Positions 44,860-59,391 of a DNA stretch of 64,000 bases are shown in pieces (position 1 is the stretch's first letter; each line of letters begins with the position of its first letter). This DNA comes from an uncultured delta proteobacterium (GTDB lineage Bacteria > Desulfobacterota > RBG-13-43-22). Below the pieces are notes generated by a model. It did no database searches. It was not told the DNA's origin and worked only from the letters and a program-made list of their open reading frames with translations. The stretch spans positions 67,679 through 131,678 of the forward strand of contig CAVUPH010000008.1 of the NCBI GenBank assembly GCA_963743305.1. The letters are read 5' to 3'. Both the position numbers and the translations under genes were made by a program.

Positions 44860-45072
44860 ATGGCTTTTCACCGAGGTCAAAAAGTGGAGATATTCTGTAA
44901 ATCCCAAGACGAGGGCTGGGAGAAGTACATGGACCAGTACCTGGGCCGCCACGGGATCATCACCGATCCGGATACCTCCAAAAACGATCCGGATGCCTTG
45001 ATCGAGGTGAGTGTGGAAGGCAAGGGCACGTACCGCTTTCCCCAGGACTGCCTGCGTCCTCTCCCGGAGTGA
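44860..45072 (+). CDS. small hypothetical protein, SH3/KOW-like pattern
   Basis: RBS AAGGAG; FHRGQKVEI...GRHGII...IEVSV...YRFPQDCL. Confidence 0.65.
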   Translation: MAFHRGQKVEIFCKSQDEGWEKYMDQYLGRHGIITDPDTSKNDPDALIEVSVEGKGTYRFPQDCLRPLPE

Positions 45073-45168
45073 CCCGGCCGGGCCCTGCCCGCCGCACCGG
45101 GGACCATTTTCCAGGCGACGTTTGGAGAAACGCCCGGTGTGCTCCTGCCGTCCCAAGAAAGGTCCGCA

Positions 45169-45756
45169 ATGATGATCCAGACGATTGGCCGGTTTGCTTT
45201 CGGGGAATTCGTCGACCGGGTAAAGGCCTTCCATGGTTTTCCCGCCCCCGGGGTAATCCTGGGCGGAGTCATGGTCGATTTGGCCATAAAAAATTTGCCG
45301 GATCATATTTTGTATGATGCCCTTTGTGAAACCGATAAGTGCCTCCCGGATGCCGTTCAATTGCTGACCCCCTGTACGGTGGGCAACGGGTGGCTAAAGG
45401 TTCAGGATTGGGGTCGGTTCGCCCTGGCTCTCTACAATAAAAAAACCGGGGCGGGGATCAGGGTGGTTTTGAATCCTGCTCGGGTGGAAGAGTGGCCTGA
45501 AATCAAGGACTGGTACTACAAACTGAAACCCAAAAAGGAAGGGGACCCGGAAAAACTTCTCATCGCTATCCAAGGGTCCGGGCATAGGCTCTGCTCGCCG
45601 CAGAAAATCCAGATTCAGCCCGCGCTGCTGATAAAAAAACCCAGGGGAAAACGGGTCGTCTGTCCCCAATGTCAGGAAGCCTTTCCGGCAGACGCTCCAG
45701 GAATCTGTTTAGCCTGCCAAGGGAAATCTCCTTACCTTTCCCAATGCAGGGAATAA
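45169..45756 (+). CDS. FmdE-family protein with C-terminal Zn ribbon
   Basis: FHGFPAPG, CLPDAVQLLTPCTVGNG, CPQC...CLACQG. Confidence 0.88.
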   Translation: MMIQTIGRFAFGEFVDRVKAFHGFPAPGVILGGVMVDLAIKNLPDHILYDALCETDKCLPDAVQLLTPCTVGNGWLKVQDWGRFALALYNKKTGAGIRVVLNPARVEEWPEIKDWYYKLKPKKEGDPEKLLIAIQGSGHRLCSPQKIQIQPALLIKKPRGKRVVCPQCQEAFPADAPGICLACQGKSPYLSQCRE

Positions 45757-45839
45757 CCCATTTCCATTCGGCAAAATTTAATGGACGATGGGCTGGAGAC
45801 TATGGTAAAAATGGCCACGGGCTCCTAAAAAATTGACGC

Positions 45840-46148
45840 TTCGCCCTTTTGGGTGGGTACCCCTTGGATCTAGTATGGCCATCTGGTCTCGGCGAAAGGG
45901 TTTTCCAAAGGTACTCCGGACTTCGAATCCGGGCCGAAATTACTCATTTTATTTGAAGCAGGCCCAAACTCAGAGACTTTTGATGCTTCCCAGGCTGGCC
46001 CTGCTTCCGGGAAGATTTAGAAACACTGGGGCCGGGTTAGAACCTATAAGGCCAGGTGGAAAACCCTTTCGCCGAGACCAGATGGCCATGGGGGCCTGAT
46101 TTCAGTCTAATCTACTAGATATCGTGGCCACCCACCCAAAAGGGCGAA
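45840..46148. repeat. nested inverted-repeat element (structured RNA, MITE-like or invertible segment)
   Basis: Perfect 19-bp IR (45840-45858/46130-46148), 8-bp IR (45868-45875/46113-46120) and perfect 33-bp IR (45875-45907/46057-46089). Confidence 0.85.
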
Positions 46149-46190
46149 CAACCAAAAAGTTTAGGGATTCAAAAGAGGAAAAGACCGACC

Positions 46191-46562
46191 ATGACCAACT
46201 TAAAATTTCATCCGGACCATTCCTGGATTCGAATGGAGGGTGATATCGGCATCATCGGCATCTCCCATTTTGCCCAGGAGCAGATGGGCAAGATTATCTA
46301 TGTGGAATTGCCCGAGCCCGGGACCGAGGTTATCGCCGGTGAACCGCTGGGAGCTCTGGAATCGAGCAAAGTGACTTCCGATCTCATCGCTCCGATAAGC
46401 GGCGAAGTCATAGAATCCAATCAGGACCTGGACCAAGAGCCCACCCTGATCAACGATTCCCCTTACGAACGGGGATGGATCACCCGGGTCAGGCTGAAAA
46501 ACCCGGCTGAAATCGATGCCCTGATGGAAGAGGCCGCTTACCTCGCCCGGGTCTCCAATTAA
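46191..46562 (+). CDS. gcvH: glycine cleavage system H protein
   Basis: HSW, GISHFAQ, lipoyl-Lys motif LESSK, INDSPY.GW. Confidence 0.92.
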   Translation: MTNLKFHPDHSWIRMEGDIGIIGISHFAQEQMGKIIYVELPEPGTEVIAGEPLGALESSKVTSDLIAPISGEVIESNQDLDQEPTLINDSPYERGWITRVRLKNPAEIDALMEEAAYLARVSN

Positions 46563-46575
46563 CTGATTTTCAGAG

Positions 46576-48024
46576 ATGAGTATCCGCATCGGCATTATCG
46601 GCGCCGGACCGGGGGGTTATATCGCCGCCATCCGCGCCGCCCAGTTGGGCGCGGAGGTCCTCCTTTTTGAACAGGAGGAAGTGGGGGGGACCTGCCTGAA
46701 CTGGGGTTGCATCCCCACTAAGACCCTGAGGACCACCGCCGAGGCCCTTGAGCAGTTTCACCGGGCCAGGGAATTGGGAATTGATCTGGAGGGCGGCTTT
46801 AAACCCAACCTGAAGCGGATCATGTCCCGGAAAAACGAAGTAATTCAGATCCTGGTCCAGGGCATCCGAAAAATTCTGAGCAGCTATAAAATCCAACAGG
46901 TCTCGGGCCAGGCCTTCGTGGCCGATCCCCGGATGATCAAGGTTCGGGAAAACCAGGGCGGGGAACAGAAATTCCCGGTGGATAAGATGATCCTCGCTCC
47001 CGGTTCCCGGCCTCTGGCTTTTCCGGCCTTTCCCTTTGACGGGACCCACATCCTCTCCAGTAACGACGCCCTGACCCTGGAAACGATTCCGGAATCCATC
47101 CTGATCATCGGCGGCGGGGTGATCGGTTGCGAATTCGCGTTTATTTTCCAGGCCCTGGGCAGCCAGGTGACGGTGGTGGAGGCCCTGCCCCGGGTCATCG
47201 GCCTGCCTTCGGTGGATGGGGACTGCTCCACGGTCCTGCAGCGCGAAATGAAAAAAAAGAAGATCCGTCTTTATCTGGACAAGACCGTGGAACAGACAGA
47301 AGTCCAAAACGGACGGGTCAAAGTGACCATCGGGCCTTCCCCCTTTCTTGTGGAAGCAAAAGAAAAGGATAAAAAAACCGTCGAGGTGGAGGTGCGGCAG
47401 GTCTTAGTCACCATAGGACGGCAGTCAAACACCGAAGTCCTGGGGCTGGAGTCCTTGGGCCTGGAGCGGGATACCCGGGGCTGGATCAGGGCCAATGAAC
47501 GGTTGGAGACCAATATCCCCGGGATCTATGCCGTTGGGGACGCCCTGGGGCCGTCCAAGATCATGCTGGCCCATGTGGCCTCCACCGAAGGGATCCTGGC
47601 TGCTGAAAACATCATGGGCCGTAAGCGGACCATGGATTACGAAGTGGTGCCCTCGGGAATATTCACTTTCCCCGAGGTTGCCAACGTGGGCCTCACCGAA
47701 TCCCAAGCCGGCCTGCGGGGCCTGGAAGTGCGGGCCGACAGCTTTCCTTTTCGGGCCCTGGGAAAACCCCAGGCGATGGGAGAAATCGTGGGGCAGGTCA
47801 AAATCATTTCGGAGCGAAAAAACCTGAGGATAGTGGGGGTCCATATCGTCGGGCCACACGCCACCGATCTGATCGCCGAAGGGGCCCTGGCGATCCAAAT
47901 GGGGGCCACGGTGGAAGATCTGGCGCGGACCATCCACGCCCACCCCACCCTGTCCGAGGCGGTTCTGGAAGCGGCCCATCAGGCCCTGGGCACAGGCCTG
48001 CATAGTTTAAAAGAGAGCCATTAA
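46576..48024 (+). CDS. lpdA: dihydrolipoamide dehydrogenase
   Basis: GAGPGGY, GGTCLNWGCIPTK, GGGVIG, HAHPTLSE. Confidence 0.95.
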   Translation: MSIRIGIIGAGPGGYIAAIRAAQLGAEVLLFEQEEVGGTCLNWGCIPTKTLRTTAEALEQFHRARELGIDLEGGFKPNLKRIMSRKNEVIQILVQGIRKILSSYKIQQVSGQAFVADPRMIKVRENQGGEQKFPVDKMILAPGSRPLAFPAFPFDGTHILSSNDALTLETIPESILIIGGGVIGCEFAFIFQALGSQVTVVEALPRVIGLPSVDGDCSTVLQREMKKKKIRLYLDKTVEQTEVQNGRVKVTIGPSPFLVEAKEKDKKTVEVEVRQVLVTIGRQSNTEVLGLESLGLERDTRGWIRANERLETNIPGIYAVGDALGPSKIMLAHVASTEGILAAENIMGRKRTMDYEVVPSGIFTFPEVANVGLTESQAGLRGLEVRADSFPFRALGKPQAMGEIVGQVKIISERKNLRIVGVHIVGPHATDLIAEGALAIQMGATVEDLARTIHAHPTLSEAVLEAAHQALGTGLHSLKESH

Positions 48025-58794: not shown

Positions 58795-59391
58795 GCAGGT
58801 TTTAAGCCCTTAGATTGCGTTTTGGTTTAGGATGCGTGCGTTGTTTTTTACGGTTGGATTAAGGACGGTTGTAATGGATTCGAAAGGCCCTGTCAAAGGG
58901 GGAAAGGGCGATTTTTAAGTTAGCCAAGGCTGAAGCGTTGAGGAGGCTGAAGTAGCCCTGAAAGCGGTCCTTCAAGGTTTCAAGAGGTCTAACTGGCTAG
59001 AAATTCATTTCATATTTGGATTCAATAAATCCTGAGTAGTTTTCAGGGGTAAGCCTCCTGGCTCCCTCGAGGGCCGCGGCGGGTTCATTATTTTTCCTCT
59101 GTTTTCCTTTTCTTTTCTTCCTTTTTTGAAGCCTCCCGCCCCCCCCCTTCAAAAATCTCCTTTTCCCCTTTCCCTCGATAAAGAAAACCTGGAAAGCCAG
59201 GGGTTCTGCTGGATTAAGGGGGTCCTTTTTTCGATGAATAGCGGTCCTCGGCGGAACCTGAACCAGCAACTCGATTTTGTGCTGTAATTTACCGGCCTTC
59301 CGGTGGTTGAAGGAGTGGCGGGAAAAATGAAAACAGACGTTGTTCGCCCTTATGGGCGGGTGGCTACCCTCGTGGAGAACTGCCAATGGTT

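What the first reader, a model, noticed from the sequence alone, without database searches (positions are those of the whole stretch)
45812..46148. ~310-bp nested inverted-repeat element upstream of gcvH-lpdA
Seen: a perfect 33-bp IR (ATGGCCATCTGGTCTCGGCGAAAGGGTTTTCCA, 45875-45907, with its complement at 46057-46089) encloses a 149-nt core. It is nested inside an 8-bp IR and a perfect 19-bp IR (TTCGCCCTTTTGGGTGGGT, 45840-45858/46130-46148). The arms are asymmetric: about 23 extra nt sit on the right arm only (46090-46112). The core has its own stems (CCGGA/TCCGG at 45916-45932; GAAGCAGG/CCTGCTTC), and TGGCCACG (45812-45819) can pair alternatively with CGTGGCCA (46123-46130). I see no target-site duplication and no transposase, recombinase or reverse transcriptase in the window. 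The element ends 42 nt before the gcvH ATG. Inference: an unnamed long rod-like ncRNA or leader (possible RNase III substrate or switch), a non-autonomous mobile element, or an invertible segment controlling gcvH-lpdA.
Basis: partly seen in the sequence, partly recalled or inferred. Interest (0 to 1): 0.8.

Follow-up and report, generated by a model that had tools for sequence, protein, structure and literature searches.

The report
Small jumping-DNA element upstream of gcvH
The nested inverted repeat in front of gcvH is one copy of a roughly 320-bp non-coding transposable element (a MITE) that is scattered through this genome and its close relatives, so it is ordinary mobile DNA and not a dedicated regulator of the glycine-cleavage genes.

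Summary
In detail: the perfect 33-bp and 19-bp inverted repeats are at the stated coordinates. The reading needs correcting.

- **What it is.** The feature is a 319-bp MITE at window 45835-46153. It has an 8-bp A+T-rich target-site duplication, AAAAAATT / AAAAAGTT.
- **Copy number.** Family-related sequence lies at 114 loci of the 4.9-Mb assembly. 27 of these are full length.
- **Target duplications.** 24 of 40 end-to-end pairs carry 8-bp flanking direct repeats matching at 7 or 8 positions. The control gives 1.9%.
- **Empty site.** The orthologous fmdE-gcvH spacer is empty in the closest sister species, whose flanks are 95-97% identical. A soil-metagenome contig shows the same empty form.
- **Likely mobiliser.** The outer ~45 nt of each end are 71-73% identical to the corresponding ends of an ISL3-family insertion sequence found in relatives. 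ISL3 elements also make 8-nt duplications (PMC11448079). No ISL3 transposase is in this assembly.
- **Inner hairpin.** The 33-bp stem keeps pairing through compensatory changes, while the 149-nt core shows none. The core lies in either orientation in different copies, from at least 3 independent inversions.
- **Not found.** Rfam gave no match, no tRNA or tmRNA was found, and neither scanned region holds a promoter-like site.

Verdict: a new family of a known kind, of low to moderate interest.

The parts
45827..45834 (.). Left copy of the 8-bp target-site duplication (AAAAAATT)
   Evidence: The sister species has a single copy of this 8-mer at the empty site.
45835..46153 (+). Whole MITE, 319 bp, drawn L end to R end. 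GC is 0.53 against 0.546 for the genome.
   Evidence: Boundaries come from the alignment of 30 copies with their flanks and from the register in which the flanking 8-mers match.
45835..45858 (+). Left terminal inverted repeat: outermost GACGC plus the perfect 19-mer
   Evidence: The consensus L end has 33 of 45 positions identical to the left end of an ISL3 IS (z = 10.5).
45859..45874 (+). Short left spacer (16 nt) between the terminal repeat and the 33-bp arm
   Evidence: It is alignable to the subterminal part of the IS end.
45875..45907 (+). Left arm of the perfect 33-bp inner inverted repeat. It contains a 4-nt hypervariable box at 45881-45884 (ATCT in this copy).
   Evidence: I1. Compensatory changes are shown: columns 50-53 pair with columns 279-282.
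45908..46056 (+). 149-nt core, with a conserved CCGGA-loop-TCCGG hairpin and further GC-rich stems. It is in the canonical orientation in this copy.
   Evidence: None of its 21 predicted pairs has a change on both sides. Its orientation varies among copies.
46057..46089 (+). Right arm of the 33-bp inner inverted repeat
   Evidence: I1.
46090..46129 (+). Long right spacer (40 nt). It holds the roughly 23 extra nt that make the arms asymmetric.
   Evidence: Its outer part aligns to the right subterminal region of the IS.
46130..46153 (+). Right terminal inverted repeat: the 19-mer complement plus outermost CAACC
   Evidence: The consensus R end has 32 of 45 positions identical, without gaps, to the right end of the ISL3 IS (z = 11.5).
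46154..46161 (.). Right copy of the target-site duplication (AAAAAGTT)
45139..45756 (+). Upstream gene: FmdE-domain protein with a C-terminal zinc finger
   Evidence: Pfam PF02663 (E = 8.9e-34) and PF23475.
46191..46562 (+). gcvH (glycine cleavage H protein). It starts 37 nt after the element.
   Evidence: Pfam PF01597, E = 3.8e-40.
46576..48024 (+). Dihydrolipoyl-dehydrogenase-like flavoprotein (lpdA-like)
   Evidence: Pfam PF07992 and PF02852.
59339..59367 (-). Solo 29-nt remnant of an R-type end of the same family
   Evidence: 59343-59361, 2 mismatches; C8 127021; C8 127017-127045, Rend positions 35-63.

Best explanation

**Anatomy.** Each full copy has two 24-nt terminal inverted repeats and about 20-40 nt of subterminal sequence. 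These parts descend from the ends of an ISL3-family insertion sequence. Between them lies a 215-bp module unrelated to that IS: a 33-bp inverted repeat around a 149-nt core.

**Mobilisation (inferred).** A DDE transposase of the ISL3 family, supplied in trans, binds the ends and inserts the element into A+T-rich 8-bp targets, which it duplicates.

**This copy (shown).** It landed between the fmdE-like gene and gcvH after this species split from its closest sampled relative. That widened the spacer from 107 to 434 nt and left the gcvH ribosome-binding region untouched.

**Effect on expression (not shown).** Any effect on gcvH-lpdA would be a side effect. If the spacer is transcribed from upstream, the transcript carries a long, very stable hairpin.

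**Inner stem (inferred).** Its complementarity is most simply kept up in the lineages of active source copies, by selection for transposable copies, by arm-to-arm correction during replication (quasipalindrome template switching), or by both. The same inverted arms allow occasional inversion of the core and deletion of the hairpin tip. Deletion yields mobile short forms of about 102-112 bp.
For: **Multicopy.** The assembly holds 167 BLAST matches to the element at 114 loci. These comprise 23 full-length canonical copies, 4 full-length copies with an inverted core and 10 short forms; the rest are fragments. The 19-mer with up to 3 mismatches occurs 150 times.

**Target duplication.**
- Of 40 facing 19-mer pairs 60-400 nt apart, 15 have perfect 8/8 flanking direct repeats and 9 have 7/8.
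- With the boundary shifted by 1-3 nt, 0-1 of 40 reach 7/8.
- Mismatched left/right flanks reach 7/8 in 1.9% of pairs.
- The duplicated 8-mers are 87% A+T.

**Empty sites.**
- In G002 the flanks are contiguous, overlapping by about the length of the target, at 95% and 97% identity.
- G003 and G001 also lack the element upstream of gcvH.
- A contig of soil run X2 joins 45820 to 46156.
- A second young copy (locus L003) is empty in G002, G001 and G003.
- 18 full-length copies in relatives' loci had both flanks mapped to one contig of this genome. Of these sites, 9 are empty here, 3 hold the orthologous copy and 6 are other or unclear.

**Distribution.** The family is found in 3 of 3 other species of the genus and in 3 of 3 species of two sister genera. 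It was not found in 14 species of a fourth genus or in 20 other families of the phylum.

**ISL3 link.**
- PF01610 transposase fragments lie inside 1.44-kb elements with 28-30-bp terminal repeats at G002:C9 and G003:C18.
- MITE L end against the IS left end: 33 of 45 identical, z = 10.5. MITE R end against the IS right end: 32 of 45, z = 11.5. Cross pairs score lower, at z = 6.2 and 9.0.
- The IS copies sit next to A+T-rich flanks.
- A passage of PMC11448079 reports ISL3 ends beginning GGCTCTTCG, 8-nt direct repeats and a 187-nt ISL3-derived MITE in Microcystis. The two ends here, GACGCTTCG and GGTTGTTCG, each match that 9-mer at 7 of 9 positions (my count).

**Non-coding.** The internal 88-codon frame has no Pfam hit, and copies differ by indels that are not multiples of three.

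**Not an assembly artefact.** The family appears in several independently assembled genomes. A 206-nt contig of run X1 with 1 mismatch spans the right junction, although X1 may be the source sample.
Against: - No ISL3 transposase domain was found in this assembly (0 matches). The assembly is 90% complete, so absence is not shown, but the recent insertions have no identified mobiliser here.
- The IS ends are only 71-73% identical to the MITE ends. The IS copies seen lie at contig starts, so neither can be checked for a duplication on both sides. Their transposase frames are interrupted: at least 3 ORF pieces in G002:C9. They may be relatives of the true mobiliser and not the mobiliser itself.
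- Two other ISL3 elements in the relatives (loci L090 and L095) show no similarity of ends.
- The element is not A+T-rich, unlike what the review PMC10969869 calls typical of MITEs (passage seen).
- The origin and role of the inner 215-bp module are unexplained. Its strict pairing with a hypervariable box is more than a plain 'stuffer' predicts.
Confidence: 0.92

Rival explanations
1. It is a MITE, but the inner 33-bp stem plus core is a selected functional module. It could be a DNA hairpin or cruciform that the transposition machinery or a host protein needs. It could also be an RNA hairpin that the host has recruited at some loci, for example for RNase III processing or transcript stabilisation.
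For: - 10 of the 24 pairs of the 33-bp helix show changes on both sides, and 98.9% of cells are paired.
- The two most variable pairs have three pair types each and no broken cell in 39 copies.
- 0 of 500 shuffles reach the observed covariation.
- Parts of the core are invariant across 39 copies from several species.
- Pieces of family members occur in contigs of two metatranscriptome runs. The tool warns that this does not show transcription.
Against: - Covariation is confined to DNA-symmetric inverted repeats. None of the 21 core pairs has a change on both sides.
- G-U and A-C mismatches are about equal, 12 against 7 by my count. Neither strand is favoured as RNA.
- In the 3 orthologous copy pairs shared with a relative, the stem diverged no more slowly than the core: 8 differences in 198 sites against 11 in 447. 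Three pairs is a small sample.
- Short forms that lack the module still carry perfect target duplications (C7 185518, C24 52512). The module is therefore not required for insertion.
- Replication template switching makes imperfect inverted repeats more perfect without selection (PMC7202029, abstract seen).
Confidence: 0.1
2. It is a programmed invertible switch. The 149-nt core flips between the 33-bp arms and sets gcvH-lpdA expression.
For: - The core is found in both orientations relative to the asymmetric arms. Of 42 cores, 31 are canonical, 6 inverted and 5 undetermined.
- The inverted ones need 6 changes on the tree, and well-supported branches force at least 3.
- A contig in run X2 joins the L side to the reverse-complemented right arm of some family copy.
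Against: - I saw no recombinase gene next to the element: its neighbours are an FmdE-domain gene, gcvH and an lpdA-like gene. I did not screen the rest of the window's ORFs.
- No promoter-like site was found in 45500-46300.
- The copies sit at about a hundred unrelated loci.
- The element is absent from this spacer in relatives.
- Only contigs could be laid on the stretch, not reads, and the inverted joint belongs to a copy about 87% alike, not to this locus.
- Rare inversion between 33-bp inverted arms needs no dedicated enzyme.
Confidence: 0.03
3. It is a dedicated cis-regulatory leader or ncRNA of the gcvH-lpdA operon, such as a riboswitch-like element or an RNase III-controlled 5' UTR.
For: It lies 37 nt upstream of the gcvH start and folds very stably.
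Against: - It is absent from the same spacer in G002, G003 and G001.
- It occurs at 114 loci.
- Rfam gives no match at E up to 1.
- It carries a target-site duplication and transposon-type ends.
Confidence: 0.01
4. It is a MITE mobilised by a transposase family other than ISL3. The likeness to ISL3 ends would then be convergent, or inherited from a distant common end type.
For: - No PF01610 match in the own assembly.
- Identity to the IS ends is only 71-73%.
- I recall that several other IS families also make 8-bp duplications. This was not tested here.
Against: - Like-with-like end matching, L with left and R with right, at z = 10.5 and 11.5, including the asymmetric outermost bases.
- The same 8-bp A+T-rich target habit as published for ISL3.
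- No transposase gene lies beside the two solo ends whose neighbouring ORFs I listed. The sequence inside the others runs on as MITE or breaks off within about 140 nt.
Confidence: 0.1
5. It is a fold-back assembly artefact.
For: Perfect long inverted repeats can arise from chimeric assembly.
Against: - The same structure occurs in dozens of diverged copies in this assembly and in other assemblies.
- An independent contig spans the right junction.
Confidence: 0.005

Closest known systems
187-nt ISL3-derived MITE of Microcystis aeruginosa (PMC11448079; passages seen)
   Same: - Short and non-coding.
- Imperfect terminal repeats that match those of ISL3-family insertion sequences.
- 8-nt direct repeats.
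- A stem-loop fold.
- Moves into or near genes.
   Different: - A different phylum and no sequence relationship tested.
- The element here is 319 bp.
- Its ends match the published 9-mer GGCTCTTCG at only 7 of 9 positions.
- It carries a 215-bp inner palindromic module whose core varies in orientation.
Chunjie MITE of Geobacter uraniireducens (as described in PMC3184786; passages seen)
   Same: - A deltaproteobacterial host.
- About 0.2-0.3 kb with terminal repeats of about 21-24 bp.
- Predicted folds of around -100 kcal/mol or stronger.
- The cited title reports insertion into an operon.
   Different: - Chunjie is A+T-rich with 9-bp direct repeats. This family has 53% GC with 8-bp repeats.
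- No sequence comparison was made.
- I did not read the Chunjie primary paper.
Correia elements of Neisseria (PMC3184786, passages seen; further properties recalled)
   Same: Abundant small inverted-repeat elements that are often located 5' of genes.
   Different: - The passages read describe Correia elements as about 104-157 bp and as carrying functional promoters and an IHF site.
- TA target duplication and RNase III processing of Correia transcripts are my recollection, not from a call.
- None of these features was found or testable here. No promoter-like site was found.
ISL3-family insertion sequences in sister species (G002:C9:1-1441, G003:C18:1-1442, G007:C73 and G007:C368)
   Same: - Terminal about 45 nt on each side are 71-73% identical, with the same left/right asymmetry.
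- A+T-rich flanks.
   Different: - They are 1.44 kb and encode a PF01610 transposase, interrupted in the copies seen.
- They lack the 33-bp stem and core.
- They were not found in the window's own assembly.

Membership tests
MITE (miniature inverted-repeat transposable element) | Short (under about 500 bp) and without coding capacity | tested here: met
   The element is 319 bp. Its internal 88-codon frame has no Pfam hit, and indels that break the frame occur among copies.
MITE (miniature inverted-repeat transposable element) | Terminal inverted repeats | tested here: met
   The ends are 24 nt, of which 19 are perfect in this copy.
MITE (miniature inverted-repeat transposable element) | Target-site duplication of fixed length | tested here: met
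   The duplication is 8 bp. 24 of 40 pairs match at 7/8 or better, against 1.9% in the control, and only in the correct register.
MITE (miniature inverted-repeat transposable element) | Many dispersed copies | tested here: met
   114 loci in 4.9 Mb. Dozens of matches in each of three congeneric genomes.
MITE (miniature inverted-repeat transposable element) | Presence/absence polymorphism with precise empty sites | tested here: met
MITE (miniature inverted-repeat transposable element) | Mobilised in trans by a transposase | not testable with these tools
   This needs a mobilisation assay.
ISL3-derived element | 8-bp direct repeats at the insertion | tested here: met
   The family trait is as stated in PMC11448079.
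ISL3-derived element | Ends homologous to those of an IS that encodes a DDE_Tnp_ISL3 (PF01610) transposase | tested here: met
   33 of 45 and 32 of 45 positions identical, z = 10.5 and 11.5, to IS copies with PF01610 hits of 146.7-156.8 bits in G002 and G003. The identity is moderate.
ISL3-derived element | A cognate autonomous IS in the same genome | tested here: not met
   There are 0 PF01610 matches and 0 DNA matches to the IS in G000. The assembly is 90% complete, so absence is not proven.
Rfam RNA families, tRNA, tmRNA | Match to a curated covariance model, or a tRNA/tmRNA call | tested here: not met
   No Rfam match at E up to 1 in 45300-46700. ARAGORN finds 0 genes in 45000-47000.
Site-specific invertible promoter switch | An adjacent recombinase and a promoter within the invertible segment | tested here: not met
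   The genes next to the element are an FmdE-domain gene, gcvH and an lpdA-like gene, none a recombinase. I did not screen the remaining ORFs of the window. No promoter-like site was found.
REP/BIME-type palindromic repeats | Short palindromes of about 20-40 nt without target duplication (definition recalled) | tested here: not met
   The element is 319 bp with transposon-type ends and 8-bp duplications.

The most novel reading that the evidence does not exclude
The 215-bp inner module is not passive filler. It would be a structure-selected hairpin that the element carries for a purpose. One possibility is that it folds the two ISL3-type ends together, or recruits a host factor. Its loop would flip recurrently, making this a MITE with a built-in, orientation-variable structured cargo that could be co-opted at loci such as gcvH.
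Probability: 0.1. Interest if true: 0.55.

Novelty: new member of a known kind. Interest (0 to 1): 0.25.

Why it matters
- **Annotation.** About a hundred intergenic 'structured RNA-like' hairpins in this lineage are copies of one transposon family. They should be masked before ncRNA or riboswitch hunting.
- **Evolution.** The family was active after the split of closely related species, so its insertions are useful strain markers. It adds a second documented case of an ISL3-derived MITE.
- **Possible model system.** The compensated hypervariable box, the recurrent core inversion and the hairpin-tip deletions give a natural data set on how long inverted repeats evolve in bacterial chromosomes.
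- **For gcvH-lpdA.** The practical consequence is a 327-nt longer, strongly structured spacer. Whether this changes expression is untested.

Tried and rejected
- **tRNA or tmRNA.** The CCGGA-CTTCGAA-TCCGG hairpin looked like a T-arm, but ARAGORN found nothing and Rfam found nothing.
- **Autonomous parent in the own genome.**
  - All 64 unpaired 19-mer hits were inspected over 140 nt of interior sequence. They are truncated MITE copies or chance matches.
  - Self-megablast found repeats of 1.2-4.5 kb, many of them apparently duplicated contig regions, and none of them holds a 19-mer hit.
  - PF01610 gave 0 matches.
- **Solo ends in public MAG loci.** L079 and L070 have no transposase beside them.
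- **Other ISL3 elements.** G002:C28 (intact 445-aa frame) and G003:C34 show no similarity of ends beyond 9-13-nt words.
- **Homology between MITE and IS beyond about 50 nt.** Only weak, patchy matches were found. They are treated as a lead, not a finding.
- **Gene context.**
  - Two crude longest-ORF gene callers mis-called the window's own genes and were discarded.
  - A codon-usage log-odds caller reproduced the window's genes and was used instead.
  - It was run on 34 hand-listed copies (29 long, 5 short). 31 do not overlap a predicted gene by more than 40 nt.
  - In tandem gene contexts, 14 copies are antisense and 6 sense. My arithmetic gives a two-sided binomial p of about 0.12, so no orientation bias is shown.
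- **Two supposed orthologous pairs.** L088/C26 and L062/C39 turned out not to hold the element in this genome and were dropped from the divergence count.
- **Sequencing runs.**
  - No run holds half or more of the stretch's words.
  - RNA runs X16 and X20 gave only pieces of diverged family members. That is no evidence for or against transcription at this locus.
- **Earlier findings.** The search by sequence returned nothing.
- **Not used.** No protein homology search, structure prediction or complex prediction was run. The question did not need them.
Full report
**1.

- The 33-nt inverted repeat 45875-45907 / 46057-46089 is perfect and encloses 149 nt.
- The 19-mer 45840-45858 / 46130-46148 is perfect.
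- The small core stems are present.
- The right arm carries about 23 extra nucleotides.

Chance does not produce this. The 33-mer is expected 0.00 times in shuffles and occurs twice. The region folds at -164.6 kcal/mol on the + strand and -169.7 on the - strand. Both z-scores are -8.7, and 0 of 100 shuffles fold as well.

No tRNA or tmRNA was found in 45000-47000. No Rfam family matches at E up to 1 in 45300-46700. No promoter-like site was found in 45500-46300.

Pfam confirms the gene context:
- an FmdE-domain gene at 45139-45756;
- gcvH at 46191-46562;
- an lpdA-like flavoprotein gene at 46576-48024.

**2. It is a dispersed repeat with transposon hallmarks**

A search of the window's own 4.9-Mb assembly with the 351-nt stretch returned 167 matches. 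About 40 are near full length at 75-95% identity, on many contigs.

Module-by-module BLAST places family sequence at 114 loci:
- 23 full-length copies in the same arrangement as the window copy;
- 4 full-length copies with the core inverted;
- 10 short forms of roughly 102-112 bp that consist of the two ends only;
- many truncated pieces.

One full-length copy is counted twice, because contigs C3 and C16 duplicate each other at 98%.

Aligning 30 copies with their flanks shows that similarity begins 5 nt outside the 19-mer on each side. The outermost bases are GACGC on the left and CAACC on the right. The window copy is therefore 45835-46153, 319 bp.

Flanking 8-mers match in exactly that register:
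- Of 40 facing 19-mer pairs, 15 have perfect 8/8 direct repeats and 9 have 7/8.
- Shifting the boundary by 1-3 nt leaves 0-1 of 40 at 7/8 or better.
- Mismatched flanks reach 7/8 in 1.9% of pairs.
- The duplicated 8-mers are 87% A+T.

The window copy has AAAAAATT and AAAAAGTT.

**3. Empty sites show that it inserted here recently**

In the closest sampled congener, G002, the left flank is 95% identical and the right flank 97% identical. The two flanks abut, overlapping by about the length of the target, and G002 has a single A+T-rich 8-mer where the window has two.

G003 and G001 also lack the element upstream of gcvH. A contig from soil-metagenome run X2 joins 45820 to 46156 in the same empty form.

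A 206-nt contig of run X1 with one mismatch crosses the right junction. X1 may be the source sample, so I do not count it as independent support.

Without the element the fmdE-gcvH spacer would be 107 nt. With it the spacer is 434 nt.

Other copies behave the same way.
- The copy in locus L003 is empty in G002, G001 and G003.
- The copy in L002 is absent in G003, and G002 has about 590 nt of other sequence there.
- 18 full-length copies in relatives' loci had both flanks mapping to one contig of this genome. Of these sites, 9 are empty here, 3 hold the orthologous copy and 6 are other or unclear.
- One of the unclear sites holds a copy truncated from its end.

**4. Distribution**

Among 40 relatives, the element is found in 3 of 3 other species of the genus and in 3 of 3 species of two sister genera. 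It was not found in 14 species of a fourth genus of the family, nor in one genome from each of 20 other families of the phylum.

An exact-match scan of 185,579 species genomes with the 19-mer gave 49 stretches.
- 42 lie in records titled 'uncultured delta proteobacterium'.
- The other 7 are single hits in unrelated MAGs. Six of these end within 19-22 nt, so they are chance-level.
- The seventh, in a contig labelled Chloroflexia, extends to about 31 nt with the family's outermost bases.

**5. The likely source and mobiliser: an ISL3-family IS**

No transposase lies beside the two solo ends whose neighbouring ORFs I listed. The sequence inside the other solo ends runs on as MITE or breaks off within about 140 nt. 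The ISL3 transposase domain PF01610 has no match in this assembly.

It does match in G002 and G003, with 3 matches in each. Four of these six matches lie in 1.44-kb elements at the starts of contigs G002:C9 and G003:C18. These elements have 28-30-bp terminal repeats. Diverged copies exist in G007, one with its left flank preserved.

Comparison of the family consensus ends with these IS ends:

| MITE end | IS end | Identical positions | z against 2000 shuffles |
|---|---|---|---|
| L | left | 33 of 45 | 10.5 |
| R | right | 32 of 45, ungapped | 11.5 |
| L | right | not used | 6.2 |
| R | left | not used | 9.0 |

The asymmetric outermost bases go with the corresponding IS end. The IS flanks are A+T-rich.

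Passages of PMC11448079 describe the following for Microcystis:
- ISL3 terminal repeats beginning GGCTCTTCG;
- 8-nt direct repeats;
- a 187-nt MITE attributed to ISL3.

The two ends here match that 9-mer at 7 of 9 positions each (my count).

Caveats:
- Identity to the IS ends is moderate.
- The IS copies are cut by contig starts.
- Their transposase frames are interrupted. This could be real decay or long-read indel error.
- Two other ISL3 elements in the relatives have unrelated ends.
- Beyond about 50 nt the MITE and the IS are not convincingly alike. The inner 215 bp therefore has another, unknown origin.

**6. The inner hairpin**

I aligned 39 canonical copies out of 41 distinct full-length copies held in loci. 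The 2 inverted-core copies were left out.

RNAalifold and pair counting give the following:
- The 33-bp helix has 24 counted pairs. 10 have changes on both sides, and 98.9% of cells are paired.
- A 4-nt box inside the stem is hypervariable yet always complementary. One pair shows U-A 17, C-G 16 and A-U 6. Its neighbour shows C-G 22, G-C 12 and U-A 5. Neither has a broken cell.
- 0 of 500 shuffles reach the observed covariation. All slid registers fall far below it.
- The six predicted core helices, 21 pairs in all, have no pair with changes on both sides.

G-U against A-C mismatches in the stem are 12 against 7 by my count, so neither strand is favoured as RNA. The constraint looks like one on a DNA inverted repeat.

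Two explanations need no cellular function:
- Only source copies with intact stems spread.
- Replication template switching at quasipalindromes makes arms more perfect (PMC7202029, abstract).

The one direct test I could make used 3 orthologous copy pairs shared with a relative, with 45 differences in all:

| Module | Differences | Sites |
|---|---|---|
| 33-bp stem | 8 | 198 |
| Core | 11 | 447 |
| Terminal repeats | 10 | 144 |
| Spacers | 16 | 168 |

This shows no in-situ protection of the stem, but the sample is small. In one pair the box changed on both arms, partly in a compensatory way.

**7. Inversion and deletion**

The core can be oriented against the asymmetric spacers. I started from 43 cores of at least 125 nt and dropped one duplicate. 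I resolved 8 ambiguous motif calls by hand: 7 were assigned an orientation and one was set to undetermined. That left 31 canonical, 6 inverted and 5 undetermined.

On a maximum-likelihood tree of the cores, the inverted state needs 6 changes. Well-supported branches force at least 3. Inversion between the 33-bp arms has therefore happened repeatedly.

A few copies also have everything inside the 19-mers inverted relative to the outermost 5 nt.

Short forms keep the outer few base pairs of both arms around a tiny loop, with different breakpoints in different copies. This looks like repeated deletion of the hairpin tip. Several short forms have perfect 8-bp duplications, so they moved as short forms.

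**8. Gene context**

A codon-usage gene caller that reproduces the window's genes was run on 34 hand-listed copies.
- 31 do not overlap a predicted gene by more than 40 nt.
- In tandem gene contexts, 14 copies are antisense and 6 sense. My arithmetic gives a two-sided binomial p of about 0.12.

I see no evidence that orientation matters to neighbouring genes.

**9. Verdict**

This is a MITE of a new, lineage-restricted family, most likely derived from and moved by ISL3-type elements. Its place upstream of gcvH-lpdA is an accident of a recent insertion.

It works like other bacterial MITEs described in the reviews I read in passages (PMC10969869; PMC3184786). I searched the library for ISL3 with MITE, and for Chunjie with Geobacter. 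I found no description of this family. ISfinder and the supplements of these papers could not be consulted.

Open points:
- what mobilised the recent insertions in this genome;
- where the inner module came from;
- whether its strict pairing reflects function or only mutation mechanics.

Noticed in passing
window 59339-59367: A solo 29-nt remnant of an R-type end of the same MITE family, with no partner end nearby.
   Followed up: partly
G000 contigs C3/C16, C4/C26, C25/C38, C22/C37 and others (outside the window): Kilobase-scale contig regions duplicate each other at 91-99% identity. This suggests that strain variants were co-assembled, in line with the stated 5.7% contamination. One MITE copy (C3 7716 / C16 41280) is counted twice because of this.
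   Followed up: partly
L074:3613-3942, L059:7012-7343, L075:5312-5642; G000 C17:130567-130891, C27:50339-50673, C37 near 11451: A subset of copies carries an extra GC-rich mini-hairpin of about 12-18 nt at the junction of the core and one 33-bp arm. The stem is conserved and the loops differ. Its origin is unknown.
   Followed up: no
L070:1505-1545 (a contig of a MAG labelled Chloroflexia): A fragment of about 31 nt of the family's L end, including the outermost bases, lies in a MAG of another phylum. It could be a mis-binned contig or a transfer. No transposase is nearby.
   Followed up: partly
G002:C9:1-1441 and G003:C18:1-1442 (L092, L091): The ISL3 elements related to the MITE both sit at the very start of their contigs. 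Their transposase frame is split at about the same place in the DDE domain. This could be a shared frameshift or a long-read indel error.
   Followed up: partly
G000 C34:6711-6902 against L083:7008-7328: At an orthologous site this genome keeps only half of a copy that is complete in a relative. The deletion starts at or next to the element's end. This shows how the many fragments arise.
   Followed up: partly
G000, R ends of copies: In antisense tandem contexts the R end often lies 0-14 nt from the stop codon of the neighbouring gene. This could be a target preference for A+T-rich sequence just after stop codons. It was not tested statistically.
   Followed up: no
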